From positions 8,784 to 72,783 of the forward strand of contig JANNWH010000014.1 of NCBI GenBank assembly GCA_031408335.1: a stretch of DNA of 64,000 nucleotides, read 5' to 3'. Source of the DNA: Flavobacteriales bacterium (GTDB lineage: Bacteria; Bacteroidota; Bacteroidia; Flavobacteriales; Flavobacteriaceae). The translations under genes were made by a program, and so were the position numbers. Below, one piece after another: positions 1 to 9,571 of this stretch; the stretch's first letter is position 1, and each line of letters begins with the position of its first letter. Under the pieces are notes generated by a model that did no database searches, was not told where the DNA came from, and saw only the letters and a program-made list of their open reading frames with translations.

Positions 1-479
1 TAATTAGTAGCATTGGTCTTGGATATGAAACTATTATATCTAATGTATTTAGATCTGCCTCGGCAGATGTATGTTCAAAATATTTCGCAAAAGATATGCA
101 TTCAGGAATGAGGGTAGAAATAGAAAATGCAATTAAAAATAAAATGGAAGAAACACTGTCTGCCCAGGGTATATATGTTCAAGCTGTTCTGATGAAAAGC
201 ATTCAATTACCTGAGGGTCTGGCAAGTTCTATCGAACAGAAACTACAAGCTGAACAAGATGCTATGAGGATGATTTTTATTTTGCAACAAGAAAAATTAA
301 ATGCTGAAAGAAAAACCATTGAAGCAACTGGATCAAGAGATGCTCAAAAAATACTTTCAGAAGGTTTAACTGATCAAATTATTAAGATTAGAAGCATTGA
401 AGCTTTTTTAGAACTATCAAAATCTACAAATAGTAAAATAATAATTACTGACGGAAAAGCACCATTCCTTCTAAATTAA
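1..479 (+). CDS. SPFH/prohibitin (band 7) family protein, 5'-truncated by window edge
   Basis: Frame open from position 3 (ISSIGLG...); C-terminal coiled-coil pattern IEQKLQAEQDAMRM...AERKTIEATG typical of prohibitin-like proteins. Confidence 0.85.
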   Translation, partial: ISSIGLGYETIISNVFRSASADVCSKYFAKDMHSGMRVEIENAIKNKMEETLSAQGIYVQAVLMKSIQLPEGLASSIEQKLQAEQDAMRMIFILQQEKLNAERKTIEATGSRDAQKILSEGLTDQIIKIRSIEAFLELSKSTNSKIIITDGKAPFLLN

Positions 480-654
480 ATTAAAAACAACAAAACAGTA
501 AAAAAATAACCTATTTTACGAATCACAATGCCCTAAAACAAAAGGATGTCTTGTCTGATTAATTGATATCATTAATTCATAAAAATACAATCATTTGAAG
601 GTAAAACAAAATATTTACTAGGACAATTGAAATACTATCCAAAAAATAAAACCA

Positions 655-969
655 ATGGTTAACATCATCATTTATTTAAAAAAACAAGAAAGCGCAAAAG
701 AATTGGTGAAATTTCTTTTAGAAGAAAAATTAATTGCATCAGCAACAATTGATGAAAATAATATTTCTTACAAGCTGGAAAATGGTGCTTTTTCAGAAGA
801 GATATTTAGCGTTATCACTGCTCAGTCAAAATCACTATTGTTTATTGATATTGTAAAGGCTGTGGAAACTAAAACAGGAGAAGATACTCTAATCAATTCA
901 ACACCAATAGTTGGTTCTAATCGTGTTTTTGATAATACCATTACATCCAAAACTATTCCTATAAATTAA
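655..969 (+). CDS. Divergent CutA-like (PII-fold) small protein
   Basis: 104 aa; AKELVKFLLEEKLIASATI resembles CutA N-terminus, but the canonical Cys and YxW motif are absent. Confidence 0.55.
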   Translation: MVNIIIYLKKQESAKELVKFLLEEKLIASATIDENNISYKLENGAFSEEIFSVITAQSKSLLFIDIVKAVETKTGEDTLINSTPIVGSNRVFDNTITSKTIPIN

Positions 970-1149
970 CATAAAAACACGAACATACAATTTATACAAG
1001 AACAGTTTATCCACAACAATACTATAGAACTTATAGACTCTGACTTAAAATAGGTTGAATCAATAATAGCATATAAGAAAATATTTATATACAACGGACA
1101 AGCCGAACACCGTTTCAAGAAGTAGGTAAAAAAAAATAAAAATAAAAAA

Positions 1150-1818
1150 ATGAACAGATTGAAAATGATTTTAGTAGTGCTTTTAACTGCAAGTATTATG
1201 TCATCTTGCAACCAAGCTAAACAGGAAGCAAAAGAACAAACAGACAAAATTGTATCACAAACTAACGAACAAGTACAAAAAGTAATTGACGATTTGGGCT
1301 TAGTGTATGTAGAAGAAGGTGCTCAAACTGTTATTACTTACGACGAGGTAAATGCAGCCCAGCAAGCTTGGTGTGACGCTTTAGTGAAAATCGGAAAATT
1401 GAAAGAAGATGGTGGCGATTACAAAACCTTTGCAAGTGACGTGCTTTCTTCTGCTTACAATTACGACAATGGTAAAGTGTTTTTCAAACCAACATTAGCA
1501 TTTGGCGACAAAACTTTTAGAAACGATAAAAAAGGCGCCTTAGCCTACTTTATAGGTGGCGACACTGATTATCCTACAGATAAAGGTTTTGCATTGACTC
1601 CTTGGGTTAAAGCACGATACGACAATGCAGGAGACAAAAATGAAGGCATTCAAATTTACGGTTCTATTGCCATTACTATGGGTAATGTTTGGGTTACTGG
1701 AAAAGATGGCAAAGAGGTAATGGTTGATAAAACTTGGGTTTTCAAAAAAGGAAAAGACGGGAAACTTAGAATTATTGTGCATAAATCAGCACTGCCATTT
1801 TCACCTCCAACTAAATAA
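1150..1818 (+). CDS. Lipoprotein with COG4337/SnoaL-like domain, putative iota-class carbonic anhydrase
   Basis: Lipobox IMSSC; motifs QQAWCDAL, FKPTL, AYF, DKGFAL, GNVW, VDKTW, LRIIVHKSALPF. Confidence 0.7.
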   Translation: MNRLKMILVVLLTASIMSSCNQAKQEAKEQTDKIVSQTNEQVQKVIDDLGLVYVEEGAQTVITYDEVNAAQQAWCDALVKIGKLKEDGGDYKTFASDVLSSAYNYDNGKVFFKPTLAFGDKTFRNDKKGALAYFIGGDTDYPTDKGFALTPWVKARYDNAGDKNEGIQIYGSIAITMGNVWVTGKDGKEVMVDKTWVFKKGKDGKLRIIVHKSALPFSPPTK

Positions 1819-1825
1819 TTAACTT

Positions 1826-1858
1826 AAAAGGGTTAGGTTTGCAACTTAACCCTTTTTT
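1826..1858 (+). terminator. Intrinsic terminator hairpin
   Basis: AAAAGGGTTAGG-tttgcaa-CTTAACCCTTTT followed by T run. Confidence 0.75.
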
Positions 1859-1869
1859 ATTAAATCGAT

Positions 1870-2649
1870 ATGAATTATAGATTTTTACTTTTCGTTATTT
1901 TGTCTTGTGTCTCTCAGATATCGTTAGCTCAAAACACAAGACTTAACCACAATAATACAATTGGTTGGTATAATTATTTCGGTACATTTAAGTTGTCAGA
2001 TAAGTTTGGCCTGCATACTGAGTACCAATGGCGAAGAGATAATGCAATTACCGATTGGCAACAAGGTCTATTAAGAGTTGGCGTAAATTACAATTTAAAT
2101 CCACGTGTGTTGTTCAGAGTGGGTTATGCTTGGATAGAAACTTTTCCGTATGGTGAATATCCATTAAATAGTTTCGGTAGGGATTTTACAGAGCATAGAA
2201 TTTTTGAAATGGTACAACTTTCGCATAAAGAAGGAATAATAGATTTTTCTCACCGTTTTATGCTAGAACAAAGATTTGTTGGAAGATACAGTTCAGCAAG
2301 TAGGAACACCGAAGATGAATTTCCTTTATTAAATCGAATTAGGTATATGGTTAGACTTCAAGTGCCATTAAAAGGTAAAGAAATTAAAGACAAAACACCC
2401 TATGTTGCTGTTTATGATGAGATATTTATTGGATTTGGAGAAAACGTTAATGCTAATATTTTTGACCAAAATCGAATAGGTTTTTTATTAGGTTATAAAT
2501 TTAATAATATGATAAGAATTGAGGGCGGTTATTTAAATCAAACGCTACAATTTGGAAGACAAATAAATGGACAAAACGTTTTTCAAAACAATTCTGGACT
2601 GATAGTCAATGCCAACTTTGCTATTGACTTAACGAAGAAAAAAAAGTAA
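1870..2649 (+). CDS. DUF2490 outer-membrane beta-barrel protein
   Basis: Signal peptide; EYQWRR, EHRIFE, HRFMLEQRF, YDEIF, FDQNR motifs. Confidence 0.85.
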   Translation: MNYRFLLFVILSCVSQISLAQNTRLNHNNTIGWYNYFGTFKLSDKFGLHTEYQWRRDNAITDWQQGLLRVGVNYNLNPRVLFRVGYAWIETFPYGEYPLNSFGRDFTEHRIFEMVQLSHKEGIIDFSHRFMLEQRFVGRYSSASRNTEDEFPLLNRIRYMVRLQVPLKGKEIKDKTPYVAVYDEIFIGFGENVNANIFDQNRIGFLLGYKFNNMIRIEGGYLNQTLQFGRQINGQNVFQNNSGLIVNANFAIDLTKKKK

Positions 2650-2734
2650 AACTCCTATGATCCCAATGGCTATAGTTCGAAGTAATTTACTAAACTAATA
2701 GATTTTAACTTTTAAGAATTTTAAATTCGAAAAA

Positions 2735-3199
2735 TCAATTTGTTTTCGATTTATATTCATTTAATAAATTCTCAGAAAAAAATAAAGAAGAGTAAGAGTC
2801 ATGTGCCTGAGGATTATTTTTTTCAAAATCGGCTAACTTATCCAAATACAATTTTAATTGCTCTCTGGTCAATAAATTTCTGTAATCTTCTTCTTGACGG
2901 ATTAACGTTTTAACATACAAAGCAGTATCTTTAGTGTCTTCAGAAACATTCATTACTTTATAAATAGCCAATAATTCTTTGTATTGATTGATAAACAACT
3001 CTTTAAAAATCGGGTTTTGTTCTTCTGTATAATTAACAATTGCATAGGTGATTTTACCTTTTGTTTGCCAAAATAATGTTTCACCTAATTCTGCTTTAGC
3101 AACAAAATTTTGCATAACAGCCACTTTTAACTTGATAGTTTTTTCTATCTGAGCAATAGACAACAAAGGAAATAATACCAATAAAATTATTTTTTTCAT
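2735..3199 (-). CDS. Hypothetical exported protein
   Basis: 154 aa ORF with MKKIILLVLFPLLSIAQ signal peptide. Confidence 0.7.
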   Translation of the reverse strand: MKKIILLVLFPLLSIAQIEKTIKLKVAVMQNFVAKAELGETLFWQTKGKITYAIVNYTEEQNPIFKELFINQYKELLAIYKVMNVSEDTKDTALYVKTLIRQEEDYRNLLTREQLKLYLDKLADFEKNNPQAHDSYSSLFFSENLLNEYKSKTN

Positions 3200-3213
3200 T
3201 CAATATAAATTAA

Positions 3214-3242
3214 AAAAGCTTCCAACAAAATTGGAAGCTTTT
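3214..3242. terminator. Terminator hairpin downstream of tRNA-His
   Basis: AAAAGCTTCCAA-caaaa-TTGGAAGCTTTT perfect 12-bp stem. Confidence 0.8.
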
Positions 3243-3252
3243 AAGTTATTTG

Positions 3253-3327
3253 GGTGGATGACCGGGTTCGAACCGGCGACTTCCGGCACCACAAACCAGC
3301 GCTCTAACCAGCTGAGCTACAACCACC
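3253..3327 (-). tRNA. tRNA-His (GUG), G-1 encoded, CCA not fully encoded
   Basis: Reverse complement GGTGGTTGTAGCTCAGCTGGTTAGAGCGCTGGTTTGTGGTGCCGGAAGTCGCCGGTTCGAACCCGGTCATCCACC folds as a cloverleaf with GTG anticodon. Confidence 0.95.
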
Positions 3328-3340
3328 ATTTTAACGATAG

Positions 3341-3348
3341 CAAATGTA
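3341..3348 (-). promoter_or_regulatory. Bacteroidota -7 promoter box for tRNA-His
   Basis: TACATTTG on minus strand matches TAnnTTTG, 13 nt upstream of the tRNA. Confidence 0.65.
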
Positions 3349-3387
3349 TTGCAAAAGTTTTATTTTACAAAGAAAAAAGATTAAAAA

Positions 3388-4107
3388 TTATATCAAATCG
3401 CTTAAGCTATTGACAGCCAAATACCTTTCAACGGTAAATCCTTCGGCATATTCTGTTCCAATAATTCTTCCTAAATCTTGAGATCTGTATTTAACACTGT
3501 CTAAGAAATTTTTTGTTGCAATTGGTGTTTCAGGTTCTTTTGTATTCGGATTATAAAACTGCGAATCGTAAGCCATTATCGAATCCATTTTAATGGAAAT
3601 AAAATCGCTAATATCAACAACAAAATCAGGTGCTACGTTTTTCCATTGGATATAATGATAGACTAACTTTGGTCGCCATGCTTCTTGATTTTTATTATCT
3701 AATTCGGTTTCTATTCGGCGTAAACCAGATAAAAAACAAGCATCCGAAACCAACTGACTTCCTTTTGGATGATCAATATGTCGATCATCAATTGCATTAC
3801 AGAGCACAATTTCTGGACGATATTTCCGTATCATTTTAATAATTTCCAATTGATGTTTTTCATCATTGATAAAAAATCCATCACGCATCCCTAAATTCTC
3901 GCGCACATGAACTCCAAGTATTTTAGCTGCTTTTTCTGCTTCGGCATCTCTAATTTCAGCCGAACCTCGAGTTCCTAATTCGCCACGAGTTAAATCAATA
4001 ATACCCACTTTTTTTCCGAGTGAAATTTCTTTGGCAATAGTTCCGCTACAACCCAATTCAACATCATCTGGATGTGCGCCAAAAGCTAAAATATCTAATT
4101 TCATCAT
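3388..4107 (-). CDS. bshB1: Bacillithiol biosynthesis deacetylase BshB1
   Basis: GAHPDDVELGCSGT, DLTRGELGTRG, DRHIDH motifs; 239 aa. Confidence 0.92.
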   Translation of the reverse strand: MMKLDILAFGAHPDDVELGCSGTIAKEISLGKKVGIIDLTRGELGTRGSAEIRDAEAEKAAKILGVHVRENLGMRDGFFINDEKHQLEIIKMIRKYRPEIVLCNAIDDRHIDHPKGSQLVSDACFLSGLRRIETELDNKNQEAWRPKLVYHYIQWKNVAPDFVVDISDFISIKMDSIMAYDSQFYNPNTKEPETPIATKNFLDSVKYRSQDLGRIIGTEYAEGFTVERYLAVNSLSDLI

Positions 4108-7483: not shown

Positions 7484-8869
7484 ATGCCTTTACAATTAAG
7501 TTTAAAAAAAATATTTCTTTTAACGGAATATTTGTTATCAATGTTTGCATTTGCGCAAATTCCGCCAAACTATTACATCACAGCAACTGGAACTGGTTAT
7601 CCATTAAAAACCCAATTGCACAATAAAATAAAAGTGCAAACTGTTCTTAGTTATGATGCTTTGTGGGTTACTTATGCAACTTCTGACCGCGACAATCAAT
7701 ATGATTTTGACAATACTGTTATCGATATGTATTCGGAAAATCCAACAGGTTCAGATCCTGTAACTTTTATATACAGTACAAATCAATGTGGAAACTACAC
7801 TATTCAAGGTGATTGTTATAATAGAGAGCATATTATTCCGCAATCGGTATTTAATTCGGCATCACCGATGGTTTCTGATGCACATTTTGTTACTCCAACT
7901 GATGGTTTTGTAAACGGAATGCGTTCTAATAATCCCCACGGAAATGTAGCAACCGCGAGTTGGACATCTTTAAACGGAAGCAAAAGCGGAACCAGCGCTG
8001 TTCCTGATTATACAGGAACTGTTTTTGAACCTTTAAACGAATTCAAAGGCGATATTGCTCGAATGTATTTTTATTTTGCAACTCGATACGAAAATACAGT
8101 AGCAAACTATACCTTTGATATGTTTGATGATTCCAGTGATAAAGTTTTTACAACTTCTTTTTTAAACATGCTTATTAGTTGGCACAATCAAGATCCAGTA
8201 AGCACAAGAGAAATTGTAAGAAATAATGCTATTTATGCTCGACAAAATAATAGAAATCCGTTTATAGATCATCCTGAATATGTAGCTATGATTTGGAATC
8301 CAACTCCAGATATAATTGCGCCAACAAATCCAACAAATTTAGCAGCATCAAATATATCATTTGCAAGCTTAACACTAAACTGGACAGCGTCTACTGATAA
8401 TATTGGTGTAACCGCTTATGATGTGTATATGAATGGATTATTAAGAACCACAGTAACAACAACTACAGCTTTAATAACTGGTTTAAATAGTAATTCCAAC
8501 TATTCATTTTATGTTAAAGCAAAAGATCTTGCTGGAAACGTTTCTTCAAATAGTAATACAATAAGTCCTTTAACTTTACCTTTTATAGATAGTTCTCCGC
8601 CAACAATTCCATCGAGTATTACTAACTCTGCATTAACGTCGACAAGTTTTACAATAAATTGGTCAAATTCTTCCGATAATATTGGGGTTACTGGATATGA
8701 AGTTTATTTAAACGGATTATTAACTACAACTGTCTCAACCACTAGTGCTACAATTACTGGATTAACTCCAATTACAACTTATTCTATAACTTTAAAAGCA
8801 AAAGATGCTGCTGGAAATAGTTCGATTACTAGTCCAATTGTATACCTTACTACTTGCTATTGCCAATAA
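7484..8869 (+). CDS. Secreted endonuclease I-family nuclease with two FN3 domains, no T9SS CTD
   Basis: YNREHIIPQS, KGDIARMYFYFATRY, QNNRNPFIDHPE; two FN3 repeats (W.ASTDNIGVT.Y.VY); ends LTTCYCQ. Confidence 0.85.
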   Translation: MPLQLSLKKIFLLTEYLLSMFAFAQIPPNYYITATGTGYPLKTQLHNKIKVQTVLSYDALWVTYATSDRDNQYDFDNTVIDMYSENPTGSDPVTFIYSTNQCGNYTIQGDCYNREHIIPQSVFNSASPMVSDAHFVTPTDGFVNGMRSNNPHGNVATASWTSLNGSKSGTSAVPDYTGTVFEPLNEFKGDIARMYFYFATRYENTVANYTFDMFDDSSDKVFTTSFLNMLISWHNQDPVSTREIVRNNAIYARQNNRNPFIDHPEYVAMIWNPTPDIIAPTNPTNLAASNISFASLTLNWTASTDNIGVTAYDVYMNGLLRTTVTTTTALITGLNSNSNYSFYVKAKDLAGNVSSNSNTISPLTLPFIDSSPPTIPSSITNSALTSTSFTINWSNSSDNIGVTGYEVYLNGLLTTTVSTTSATITGLTPITTYSITLKAKDAAGNSSITSPIVYLTTCYCQ

Positions 8870-8890
8870 ATAGATTTATAAAAATCACCT

Positions 8891-9571
8891 TTATTTTAAT
8901 GTATTCATAAATTTTACCAATCGTATAAGGTTTTCTTCATTTTTAAAAGAAATCTTATTTTCTTTTATGAATTTTTTCAATTCTTGGGAATAATCTGGTA
9001 GTATAGAAATTATATCTTTTTCCTTTTTGCTTACAGAACTAATTTTTTTAGAAAACCCTATGTAAAATTTTTCTTCCTCTAATTTAAAATGAGCTGGCAC
9101 AGCATCACGATATCCAGAACCTGAATCATACTTAGGAACAAGTGTGATTTTTTCTTTTTTATAAAGAGAAAATTTTCCGTTTATATCATTCAGAAGTACA
9201 ACTAAAAAACCCATCTCAAATCTATTATCAATTTGATATTCAAGATATTTAAAAGATTTATTAGATAATTTTACTTCCAAACTATCTGCTTTAGAGACAT
9301 AATAGGTTTTATCTCCGTCAACAAATTCCAATTCATCTTTGTAAGCATTATATCTAATGGGAGGTGTTGGTCCTGAAATTCCAATAACTTGAGAAGCATA
9401 AAACTTACTGTCAACATAAGGAGAACCTTCAACATTTTCATATTGTTTATCAACATCTTGTGCGAAATATAAAAATCCAGTTGTATTATTATAAATGTCA
9501 AATCTTGCATTTTGTCCAAAGAAGCTGAAAGATGTAAACAGAATTAAAAAACAAACTACTTTATTTATCAT
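8891..9571 (-). CDS. Hypothetical exported protein (Flavobacterium-type EGSPY family)
   Basis: Signal peptide; VEGSPY and IRYNAYKDELEF motifs. Confidence 0.75.
   Translation of the reverse strand: MINKVVCFLILFTSFSFFGQNARFDIYNNTTGFLYFAQDVDKQYENVEGSPYVDSKFYASQVIGISGPTPPIRYNAYKDELEFVDGDKTYYVSKADSLEVKLSNKSFKYLEYQIDNRFEMGFLVVLLNDINGKFSLYKKEKITLVPKYDSGSGYRDAVPAHFKLEEEKFYIGFSKKISSVSKKEKDIISILPDYSQELKKFIKENKISFKNEENLIRLVKFMNTLK

What the first reader, a model, noticed from the sequence alone, without database searches (positions are those of the whole stretch)
655..2649. Candidate inorganic-carbon module: CutA/PII-like + iota-CA-like lipoprotein + DUF2490 barrel
Seen: three co-oriented genes, a divergent CutA-like protein, a COG4337-like lipoprotein and an outer-membrane barrel. 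Known: COG4337 proteins have been reported as iota-class carbonic anhydrases, CutA shares the PII fold, and PII-like SbtB regulates bicarbonate uptake. Inference: an envelope CO2/HCO3- capture unit in a heterotroph, with a barrel as conduit and a PII-like sensor.
Basis: partly seen in the sequence, partly recalled or inferred. Interest (0 to 1): 0.65.

Follow-up and report, generated by a model that had tools for sequence, protein, structure and literature searches.

The report
Exported carbonic anhydrase with outer-membrane barrel
A freshwater Flavobacterium carries a lipid-anchored, metal-free-type carbonic anhydrase next to an uncharacterised outer-membrane barrel, a pairing that recurs across Bacteroidota beside bicarbonate-transporter genes and so points to an undescribed outer-membrane step in inorganic-carbon handling.

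Summary
The three co-oriented genes are real. ORF 655-969 is a divergent CutA1-fold protein. ORF 1150-1818 is a lipoprotein iota-class (COG4337/MICAH) carbonic anhydrase with all four catalytic residues. ORF 1870-2649 is a DUF2490 barrel of about 12 strands.

The tight unit is CA plus barrel. DUF2490 is the next or second-next gene in 50 of 75 orthologous loci from several Bacteroidota orders. In other Flavobacterium genomes an exported beta-CA, which is not homologous, sits upstream of the same barrel. Distant DUF2490 paralogues lie next to SulP, SbtA or exported beta-CA in 10 of 20 cases. The cassette is horizontally mobile.

The CutA-like gene is not a fixed partner of the CA. It belongs to a LysR-headed array: IDH, CutA-like, small proteins, DUF6671, Sua5, SbtA. 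That array ends in CA-DUF2490 in about a fifth of loci. In this genome the array is split over two contigs, and both halves carry the same 22-nt operator.

The inorganic-carbon reading is therefore supported by context. The PII-like sensor role remains speculative. No expression or biochemical data were available.

I also found a conserved hairpin/pseudoknot RNA leader before the CA gene. It matches no Rfam family and is not CA-specific.

The parts
3..479 (+). 3' part of an SPFH/Band-7 lipoprotein gene. The full gene is G000:C14:8495-9262 and starts outside the window. It is the first gene after the LysR operator.
   Evidence: PF01145 E 1e-12. The full ORF has the lipobox ...FTSC. An SPFH gene lies just upstream of the CA in 26 of 72 loci.
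655..969 (+). Divergent CutA1-fold protein, 104 aa, cytoplasmic.
   Evidence: AF2 pLDDT 93 and Foldseek TM 0.73-0.86 to CutA1 only. A family of about 138 proteins of 103 aa. Contexts.
1094..1127 (+). Conserved 5' leader hairpin with a possible pseudoknot, about 22 nt before the CA start codon. P1 pairs 1094-1097 with 1110-1113. P2 pairs 1102-1104 with 1125-1127.
   Evidence: Covariation. No Rfam match. Model R1 searches.
1150..1818 (+). Lipoprotein iota-class (COG4337/MICAH) carbonic anhydrase homologue.
   Evidence: Catalytic T115, Y133, H211 and S213 are invariant, mapped onto mutational data in PMC8132391. It is the only exported CA in the genome.
1826..1856 (+). Terminator-like hairpin plus U-run between the CA stop and the DUF2490 start.
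   Evidence: -16.3 kcal/mol, z -4.2. By my reading of the 45 folds printed, a comparable hairpin follows the CA stop codon in most CA-DUF2490 spacers, with differing stem sequences.
1870..2649 (+). DUF2490 outer-membrane beta-barrel with a Sec signal, about 12 strands.
   Evidence: PF10677 E 4e-47. AF2 pLDDT 91. Best fold match NanC, E 2e-4, TM 0.45-0.57. Invariant Glu/Arg set. Adjacency data.

Best explanation
Genes 1150-1818 and 1870-2649 form an envelope inorganic-carbon module.

The proposed mechanism:
- The CA is a lipid-anchored, periplasm-facing iota-class enzyme that interconverts CO2 and HCO3- in the cell envelope.
- The DUF2490 barrel in the outer membrane serves that reaction. Most likely it is a small anion (HCO3-) passage. 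Less likely it is the docking site for the enzyme.
- The bicarbonate formed or admitted is taken across the inner membrane by the SbtA-family and SulP-family transporters encoded on contig C9. It supplies carboxylation reactions when CO2 is scarce.

The module is the distal, horizontally mobile add-on of a LysR(CbbR-like)-controlled gene island. The usual order is LysR< (SPFH) IDH, CutA-like, small proteins, DUF6671, Sua5, SbtA, exported CA, (LRR protein), DUF2490. Here the island is split:
- LysR, SPFH, CutA-like, CA and DUF2490 lie on contig C14.
- IDH through Sua5 and SbtA lie on C9.
- Both halves keep the same operator, so they are probably one regulon.

The CutA-like protein is a core member of that island, not of the CA pair, and its role is unknown. 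A trimeric small-molecule-binding regulator is possible.

Shown: gene identities, conserved catalytic residues, adjacency statistics, CA-class displacement, the shared operator, and horizontal spread.

Inferred: enzyme activity, topology, direction of flux, the barrel's role, and regulation by LysR.
For: 1. CA identity. 7c5v E 4e-40 and NF047901 E 2e-50. The four residues whose Ala substitution inactivates all2909 (T106, Y124, H197, S199; PMC8132391) are invariant here as T115, Y133, H211 and S213. The lipobox is conserved in all five Flavobacterium orthologues aligned.

2. CA-barrel link.
- A DUF2490 orthologue is the next gene in 40, and the second-next in 10, of 75 loci. These come from Saprospiraceae, Chitinophagaceae, Sphingobacteriales, Cytophagales and Flavobacterium.
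- Within the genus the pair sits in different genomic contexts.
- In 5 other Flavobacterium genomes the same barrel orthologue is preceded instead by an exported beta-CA with a lipoprotein or Sec signal. NF011765 scores 294 bits for one of them.
- Relics of the iota-CA remain beside the barrel in L022 and L123.
- DUF2490 paralogues at 28-41% identity lie beside SulP, exported beta-CA or SbtA in 10 of 20 loci. Four of these have SulP but no CA.

3. Ci context.
- In L021 the pair is inserted between Sua5 and SbtA/SulP.
- L138/L140 carry one 9-kb co-directional array from IDH to DUF2490.
- The own genome has SulP-betaCA and IDH...Sua5-SbtA on C9.

4. One regulon. The 22-nt core ATAAATAAAAATTTATGAATTA occurs exactly once (C14:8437, between LysR and SPFH). 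It occurs once more with 1 mismatch (C9:281993, upstream of IDH). Every other site in 2.88 Mb has at least 3 mismatches. The region is conserved next to LysR whatever the first gene is. The best NCBIfam hit of the LysR is CbbR.

5. Mobility. The CA is 75-93% identical across orders. Order labels change 37 times on the CA tree against a minimum of 6. The window's CA falls in a 97%-supported clade with Saprospiraceae. DNA identity of 83-86% is confined to the island.
Against: - No enzymatic, localisation or expression data exist.
- The CA scores below NCBIfam's equivalog cut-off (171 against 350 bits). It has HKSA where cyanobacterial and algal enzymes have HHSS.
- One third of CA loci lack an adjacent DUF2490. 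About 6 of 16 barrel orthologues in the genus have no CA upstream.
- A terminator-like hairpin separates the CA and barrel genes, so they may not be one transcript.
- The barrel's invariant Glu/Arg network, and a preprint describing such networks as buried in DUF2490 models, may mean the lumen is closed.
- The fold match to the NanC channel is weak (TM 0.45-0.57).
- Heterotrophs make their own CO2, so the physiological need is assumed.
- Taxon labels of metagenome bins can be wrong.
Confidence: 0.6

Rival explanations
1. Envelope pH buffering rather than carbon acquisition. The exported CA speeds CO2/HCO3- equilibration in the periplasm to stabilise periplasmic pH, for example during alkaline bloom conditions. 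The barrel lets HCO3-/CO3 2- equilibrate with the outside. The transporters nearby serve pH or ion balance.
For: The hosts are freshwater and activated-sludge Bacteroidota (record titles). TerC, mechanosensitive-channel and Fic genes often follow the pair. From my own knowledge, periplasmic CAs serve acid acclimation in Helicobacter.
Against: The strongest recurrent neighbours are SbtA-family and SulP transporters, a cytoplasmic beta-CA, the bicarbonate-using Sua5, and a CbbR-like LysR. That set is what an uptake and assimilation system would contain.
Confidence: 0.15
2. The barrel is functionally unrelated to the CA. DUF2490 is a general small porin or structural outer-membrane protein that merely hitch-hikes on a mobile cassette, or shares a chromosomal hot spot, with carbonic anhydrase genes.
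For: One third of CA loci lack it. About 6 of 16 barrel orthologues in the genus have no CA upstream. A terminator-like hairpin lies between the genes. In Flavobacterium the barrel often sits at a fixed TetR-ABC locus while the upstream CA varies.
Against: The same barrel subfamily is paired with two non-homologous exported CA classes. Paralogues at 28-41% identity again sit beside SulP, SbtA or CA in half of cases. The pairing survives transfer between orders and different flanks.
Confidence: 0.1
3. The CutA-like protein is the SbtB-like (PII-type) regulator of the module. It would be a trimeric ligand-binding protein that gates SbtA or controls the CA/barrel unit according to adenyl nucleotide, 2-oxoglutarate or bicarbonate status.
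For: - The fold is confidently CutA1. From my own knowledge CutA1 belongs to the same structural superfamily as PII.
- An SbtA-family gene lies nearby in 14 of 24 CutA-like loci with enough downstream sequence. It is directly adjacent in L139, L162/163 and L171.
- IDH, whose product from my own knowledge is 2-oxoglutarate, lies immediately upstream in 22 of 32 loci.
- No other PII-like gene was seen among the ORFs of the own SbtA operon.
Against: - All 50 Foldseek matches listed are CutA1 or designed cages built on the CutA fold. None is PII or SbtB.
- No T-loop or nucleotide-binding motif was identified.
- The gene is missing from 100 of 100 other sampled genomes of the genus, many of which have SbtA and the CA, and from this genome's own SbtA operon.
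- No CutA protein is known to regulate a transporter. The searchable literature gave none.
Confidence: 0.2
4. The COG4337 protein is not a carbonic anhydrase in this lineage. It would be an NTF2/SnoaL-like lipoprotein with another substrate or a binding role.
For: The score is below the NCBIfam equivalog cut-off. The motif is HKSA instead of HHSS. There is an extra conserved N-terminal segment (VQKVIDDLGLVYVEEGAQ).
Against: All four catalytically essential residues are kept. Identity to the crystallised enzyme extends over the whole domain. In relatives it is replaced at the same position by a bona fide beta-CA, which argues for equivalent function.
Confidence: 0.05

Closest known systems
Metal-independent iota-carbonic anhydrase all2909 of Anabaena sp. 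PCC 7120 (PDB 7c5v/7c5w; COG4337; Hirakawa et al. 2021, PMC8132391)
   Same: The homologous domain aligns end to end (E 4e-40). Thr, Tyr, His and Ser of the active-site cavity are conserved.
   Different: - The protein here is exported and lipid-anchored with a linker of about 40 residues.
- It has HKSA instead of HHSS.
- It is encoded in a heterotroph and paired with an outer-membrane barrel.
- Activity and metal independence are untested.
Cyanobacterial SbtA-SbtB bicarbonate uptake system under LysR-type CmpR/CcmR control
   Same: A Sbt_1-family permease, a small trimeric-fold protein of the same structural superfamily in the same gene array, and a divergent LysR regulator nearest to CbbR.
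   Different: - The small protein has the CutA1 fold, not PII/SbtB, and is often several genes away from SbtA.
- The array also holds IDH, Sua5 and DUF6671.
- The host is not autotrophic.
- No interaction has been shown.
KdgM/NanC family of 12-stranded monomeric acidic-solute channels (PDB 2wjr, 4fqe)
   Same: The best structural match of the DUF2490 model. It is of similar size and strand number and lines its lumen with charged residues.
   Different: Only weak similarity (TM 0.45-0.57, E 2e-4). There is no sequence relationship. DUF2490 has an invariant Glu/Arg network that may close the lumen.
Periplasmic alpha/beta carbonic anhydrases of Gram-negative heterotrophs (e.g. PRK15219-type exported beta-CA; Neisseria and Helicobacter periplasmic alpha-CA, from my own knowledge)
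   Same: Exported CA acting in the envelope. PRK15219-type enzymes occupy the same position upstream of DUF2490 in sister genomes.
   Different: A different, non-homologous enzyme class. I found no described outer-membrane partner for those enzymes.

Membership tests
Iota-class / metal-independent carbonic anhydrase (COG4337, NF047901, Pfam MICAH) | Homology of the whole NTF2-like COG4337 domain | tested here: met
   7c5v E 4e-40 over residues 61-218. NF047901 E 2e-50, but 171 bits is below the 350-bit equivalog cut-off. The F. lacus orthologue carries a precomputed PF27546 MICAH hit.
Iota-class / metal-independent carbonic anhydrase (COG4337, NF047901, Pfam MICAH) | Catalytic Thr106, Tyr124, His197 and Ser199 (all2909 numbering) | tested here: met
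   T115, Y133, H211 and S213 are invariant in 10 aligned homologues. Their roles come from PMC8132391.
Iota-class / metal-independent carbonic anhydrase (COG4337, NF047901, Pfam MICAH) | C-terminal HHSS/HHHSS signature | tested here: not met
   VHKSA here and in all lipoprotein orthologues. The cytoplasmic 153-aa Flavobacteriaceae homologues keep HHSS. The two residues shown to matter (H and S at i, i+2) are kept.
Iota-class / metal-independent carbonic anhydrase (COG4337, NF047901, Pfam MICAH) | CO2 hydration activity without a metal | not testable with these tools
   Needs an enzyme assay.
CutA1 (PF03091) | Sequence membership above the family threshold | tested here: not met
   Pfam 16.8 bits against gathering score 22.4. 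NCBIfam 17.7 against 120. The family profile against PDB CutA gives E 1e-3. Some family members have precomputed PF03091 hits.
CutA1 (PF03091) | CutA1 fold (beta-alpha-beta-beta-alpha-beta with C-terminal helix) | tested here: met
   AF2 pLDDT 93. All 50 Foldseek matches listed are CutA1 or designed cages on the CutA fold, TM 0.73-0.86.
PII / SbtB signal proteins | PII sequence family, T-loop and adenyl-nucleotide site | tested here: not met
   No P-II family hit. No PII or SbtB structure among the 50 Foldseek matches listed. Ligand binding is not testable here.
DUF2490 (PF10677) | Pfam model above the gathering score, with a signal peptide and beta-barrel | tested here: met
   160.9 bits against 29.8. 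N-terminal helix, then 11-12 strands, pLDDT 91.
KdgM/NanC channels | Sequence or close structural membership | tested here: not met
   No sequence hit. Foldseek TM 0.45-0.57 only.
LysR-controlled Ci island (operational definition from this work) | Divergent LysR with the conserved operator and a downstream array containing Ci genes | tested here: met
   Operator at C14:8437, with a 1-mismatch copy at C9:281993 before IDH...SbtA. Arrays.

The most novel reading that the evidence does not exclude
Bacteroidota may possess a previously undescribed, LysR-controlled, envelope-spanning inorganic-carbon system. In this reading DUF2490 is the outer-membrane bicarbonate gate working with an interchangeable exported CA (iota or beta). 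A CutA-fold trimer, rather than a PII/SbtB protein, would be the cytoplasmic regulator of the SbtA-family permease. The exported CA and SPFH genes would additionally be controlled through a new small pseudoknot leader RNA shared with a wider regulon of secreted proteins.
Probability: 0.2. Interest if true: 0.8.

Novelty: new variant of a known kind. Interest (0 to 1): 0.62.

Why it matters
- DUF2490 has more than 4,000 members and no assigned function. A reproducible link to exported carbonic anhydrases and bicarbonate transporters gives it a testable role, and suggests that inorganic-carbon uptake in diderm bacteria has a dedicated outer-membrane step.
- Abundant freshwater heterotrophs exchange a ready-made CA-barrel cassette. 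This bears on dark and anaplerotic carbon fixation in lakes and wastewater.
- CutA proteins are widespread and still lack an agreed function. Fixed residence in a LysR-IDH-SbtA array is a concrete lead.
- The shared operator and the leader RNA offer direct handles for experiments.

Tried and rejected
1. I looked for the trio in other Flavobacteriaceae genera. Their COG4337 genes are cytoplasmic 153-aa forms without DUF2490 or CutA neighbours, so they are not informative for the module.
2. I considered the CutA-like gene as an obligate partner of the CA. I rejected this because it is absent from 100 other sampled genomes of the genus and from nearly all CA loci.
3. I considered the leader motif upstream of the CA as a bicarbonate-specific riboswitch. 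This is unlikely, because the same motif precedes many unrelated small secreted proteins, DUF3892 and bacteriocin-like peptides.
4. I considered the leader motif as a DNA operator or ECF-type promoter. This is disfavoured because different copies within one genome differ in stem sequence but stay complementary, and the two inverted repeats interleave.
5. A Rfam search of 400-3400 at E up to 10 found only the tRNA plus chance hits.
6. A search for a Bacteroidetes -7 box (TAnnTTTG) upstream of the leader was inconclusive. My instance list was contaminated by loose matches, and the window-wide count equals chance.
7. A literature search by motif sequence returned only unrelated primer matches.
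9. The sigma-70-type promoter and terminator scan was at or below chance and did not report the CA-DUF2490 hairpin.
Full report
**The observation.** Window 655-2649 holds three co-oriented ORFs exactly as described.
- ORF 655-969 (104 aa) has only a sub-threshold CutA1 hit by sequence (Pfam E 0.006; PDB CutA E 0.05).
- It belongs to a family of about 138 proteins of 103 aa from freshwater Bacteroidota. The family profile reaches CutA structures (E 1e-3).
- An AlphaFold model built on that family (pLDDT 93) matches CutA1 structures, or designed cages built on that fold, in all 50 Foldseek matches listed (TM 0.73-0.86). It is a divergent CutA1-fold protein, not a PII protein.
- ORF 1150-1818 (222 aa) has a lipoprotein signal (IMSSC), a linker of about 40 residues and a COG4337 domain. 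It matches Anabaena all2909 (7c5v) at E 4e-40 and NCBIfam 'metal-independent carbonic anhydrase' at E 2e-50, below that model's strict cut-off.
- The four residues whose alanine substitution abolishes activity of all2909 (Thr106, Tyr124, His197, Ser199; PMC8132391) are invariant here as T115, Y133, H211 and S213.
- ORF 1870-2649 (259 aa) is a clear DUF2490 member (E 4e-47). It has a Sec signal and a confident barrel model of about 12 strands.
- The genome is 2.88 Mb with GC 31%. By the names of related records it is a Flavobacterium. It has no alpha-CA and one cytoplasmic beta-CA, so the iota enzyme is its only exported CA.

**What travels together.** Other genera of the family have only cytoplasmic 153-aa COG4337 proteins (HHSS motif) with neither neighbour.
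- Within the genus the lipoprotein form is rare (4 of 100 sampled genomes plus one remnant). It is followed by the DUF2490 orthologue in 3 of those 4, each time in a different genomic context.
- A scan of 185,579 species genomes returned 80 loci whose CA is 75-93% identical to the window's. They come from Saprospiraceae, Chitinophagaceae, Sphingobacteriales, Cytophagales and Flavobacterium.
- In 75 loci with enough downstream sequence, DUF2490 is the next gene in 40 and the second-next in 10. A secreted LRR protein usually lies in between.
- On a CA tree the orders are thoroughly mixed (37 label changes against a minimum of 6). The window's CA sits in a 97%-supported clade with Saprospiraceae rather than with other Flavobacterium copies.
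- DNA identity of 83-86% to those genomes is confined to the island. The cassette is therefore horizontally mobile, with the caveat that taxon labels of metagenome bins can be wrong.

**The decisive comparison.** The DUF2490 orthologue (at least 57% identity) occurs in 17 further places, in 16 other genomes, among the 100 sampled from the genus. That is far more than the iota-CA.
- In five of them the gene directly upstream is an exported beta-class CA of 247-266 aa. These carry a lipoprotein (LLVSCN) or Sec signal and the CxDxR...HxxC motifs. One was checked against NF011765 and scored 294 bits, above the cut-off.
- Degraded pieces of the iota-CA still lie next to the barrel in L022 and L123.
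- Two non-homologous exported CAs occupying the same slot before one barrel subfamily is hard to explain without a functional link.
- Barrel paralogues at only 28-41% identity lie directly beside SulP transporters, exported beta-CAs or SbtA in 10 of 20 loci. In four of these there is SulP but no CA.
- That last pattern favours a role in passage of the transported anion over a role as a mere anchor for the enzyme.
- Earlier notes of this scan reached the same pairing in other genomes. I treat them as leads, and I re-derived the pairing independently here.

**The CutA-like gene.** It is absent from 100 other sampled genomes of the genus. Among the 85 CA-centred loci it lies beside the CA only in L062 and in this genome. 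Its own neighbourhood is nevertheless highly conserved.
- A divergent LysR gene lies within 3.5 kb upstream in 23 of 32 loci.
- An NADP-isocitrate dehydrogenase lies immediately upstream in 22 of 32.
- Downstream come one or two 80-100-aa proteins, DUF6671, Sua5/TsaC, sometimes an amidohydrolase, and an Sbt_1-family permease.
- SbtA is nearby in 14 of 24 loci with enough sequence, and directly adjacent in L139, L162/163 and L171.
- In 5 of 24 loci the same co-directional array continues into exported CA plus DUF2490. L138/L140 show the full 9-kb array. L118 (F. lacus) has IDH, CutA-like, SPFH, MICAH, DUF2490. L123 has IDH, CutA-like, 83-aa protein, beta-CA, DUF2490.
The CutA-like gene is core to the LysR-IDH-SbtA part, and the CA-barrel pair is an add-on.

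**One regulon in this genome.** Here the island is split.
- Contig C14 carries LysR (7484-8407, minus strand), an SPFH lipoprotein (8495-9262), then the CutA-like gene, the CA and DUF2490.
- Contig C9 carries IDH, 79-aa and 98-aa proteins, DUF6671, Sua5 and SbtA. This array is convergent with SulP and beta-CA.
- The LysR-proximal intergenic region is conserved whatever the first gene is (SPFH, IDH or CutA-like).
- Its 22-nt core ATAAATAAAAATTTATGAATTA occurs exactly once in the genome (C14:8437). It occurs once more with a single mismatch, directly upstream of IDH on C9 (281993). All other sites have three or more mismatches.
- This is direct sequence evidence that both halves answer to the same regulator. 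The regulator's best curated relative is CbbR (below the cut-off).

**Fine structure around the CA gene.**
- A strong hairpin followed by U residues lies between the CA stop and the barrel start (-16.3 kcal/mol, z -4.2).
- By my reading of the 45 folds printed, a comparable hairpin follows the CA stop codon in most CA-DUF2490 spacers, with different stem sequences. I did not tally this. The two genes may be differentially expressed or separately transcribed.
- Upstream of the CA, window 1094-1127 holds an element conserved in about 27 of 33 aligned loci irrespective of the upstream gene.
- In 73 distinct copies a 4-bp helix (ACGG/CCGU) and a crossing 3-bp helix (GCC/GGC) are 96.5% paired. Six of seven pairs show double changes, in 19 cells against 3.0 in shuffles. 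Slid controls collapse.
- No Rfam family matches it.
- The element also precedes the exported lipoprotein beta-CAs (L105, L106, L113, L123, L229, L230) and SPFH genes (L062, L118).
- A covariance model finds it in 51 of 101 genomes of the genus (E up to 0.01) and in 11 of 143 genera across the phylum (E up to 1e-4). There it precedes many unrelated small secreted or unknown proteins.
- In that diverse set one stem pair reads CG 18, UA 11, AU 7, GC 5.
- It is therefore a general Bacteroidota leader RNA that includes the exported CA genes in its regulon. It is not a CA-specific switch, and its mode of action is unknown.

**Mechanism proposed.**
- Shown: gene identities, residues, adjacency, class displacement, the operator and mobility.
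- Inferred, step 1: the lipoprotein CA faces the periplasm and equilibrates CO2 and HCO3-.
- Inferred, step 2: DUF2490 provides the outer-membrane passage for bicarbonate, or less likely docks the CA.
- Inferred, step 3: SbtA and SulP import bicarbonate for carboxylations and for Sua5.
- Inferred, step 4: LysR switches the set on when inorganic carbon is short.
- Against the channel idea: the barrel has invariant Glu/Arg residues spaced as if lining the lumen (E51, R55, E108, R110, R129, E133, R135, R156, R158, E184, R202). A preprint reports buried charge networks in DUF2490 models. The nearest solved fold, NanC, is only a weak match (TM 0.45-0.57).
- The role of the CutA-like protein as a PII-like sensor is possible by association with SbtA and IDH. 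It has no direct support. I found no literature linking CutA to bicarbonate transport, or DUF2490 to carbonic anhydrase.

**Verdict.**
- The inorganic-carbon interpretation is supported for the CA-barrel pair and for the island as a whole.
- The specific claim of a three-gene unit with a PII-like sensor is only partly supported.
- The enzyme family is known. The outer-membrane partner, the island architecture with a CutA-fold protein, the shared operator and the leader RNA are not described in the literature I could search.

Noticed in passing
window 1094-1127 (+), and L199-L248: A small conserved hairpin with a possible pseudoknot lies 16-32 nt before start codons. The loop carries GCCGAA(A/C)A and is followed by AGUAGGC. 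It matches no Rfam family. It is found in about half of the sampled Flavobacterium genomes and in other classes of the phylum, before exported CAs, SPFH, DUF3892, bacteriocin-like peptides and many unknown small secreted proteins.
   Followed up: partly
window 1826-1856 (+): A terminator-like hairpin plus U-run lies between the CA stop and the DUF2490 start. By my reading of the 45 folds printed, a hairpin is present after the CA stop in most CA-DUF2490 spacers while its stem sequence varies. This suggests an intra-unit attenuator or an mRNA-stabilising end.
   Followed up: partly
outside the window: G000:C14:8437-8458 and G000:C9:281993 (-): The same 22-nt operator-like core (ATAAATAAAAATTTATGAATTA) occurs next to LysR/SPFH and, with one mismatch, upstream of the IDH...Sua5-SbtA operon on another contig. 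All other genomic sites have at least 3 mismatches.
   Followed up: yes
outside the window: G000:C14:5267-7189 (+): A 640-aa protein with an N-terminal region resembling a class III adenylate/guanylate cyclase, followed by TPR repeats, lies directly upstream of the LysR gene. I assigned the domains by eye. From my own knowledge some cyclases of this class respond to bicarbonate. It was seen only in this genome's version of the island.
   Followed up: no
L022:5780-5848; L123:8477-8656: Short relics of the iota-CA gene remain beside intact DUF2490 genes. In L123 the active upstream gene is now an exported beta-CA. This looks like a record of CA-class replacement at one site.
   Followed up: partly
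outside the window: G000:C16:45738-47811: A second set in the same genome comprises a secreted LRR protein (58% identical to the LRR often found between the CA and DUF2490), TerC and a DUF2490 paralogue (27% identity), followed by TetR and an ABC transporter. No CA is present.
   Followed up: no
window 3-479 and G000:C14:8495-9262: The SPFH/Band-7 protein has a lipoprotein signal (FTSC). An SPFH gene precedes the CA in 26 of 72 loci, in two identity classes. In L062 and L118 it carries the same leader RNA as the CA.
   Followed up: partly
window 3214-3326: tRNA-His (3252-3326, minus strand) with a 12-13-bp bidirectional terminator-like palindrome (3214-3242) between it and the 154-aa secreted-protein gene (2735-3199, minus strand).
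   Followed up: no
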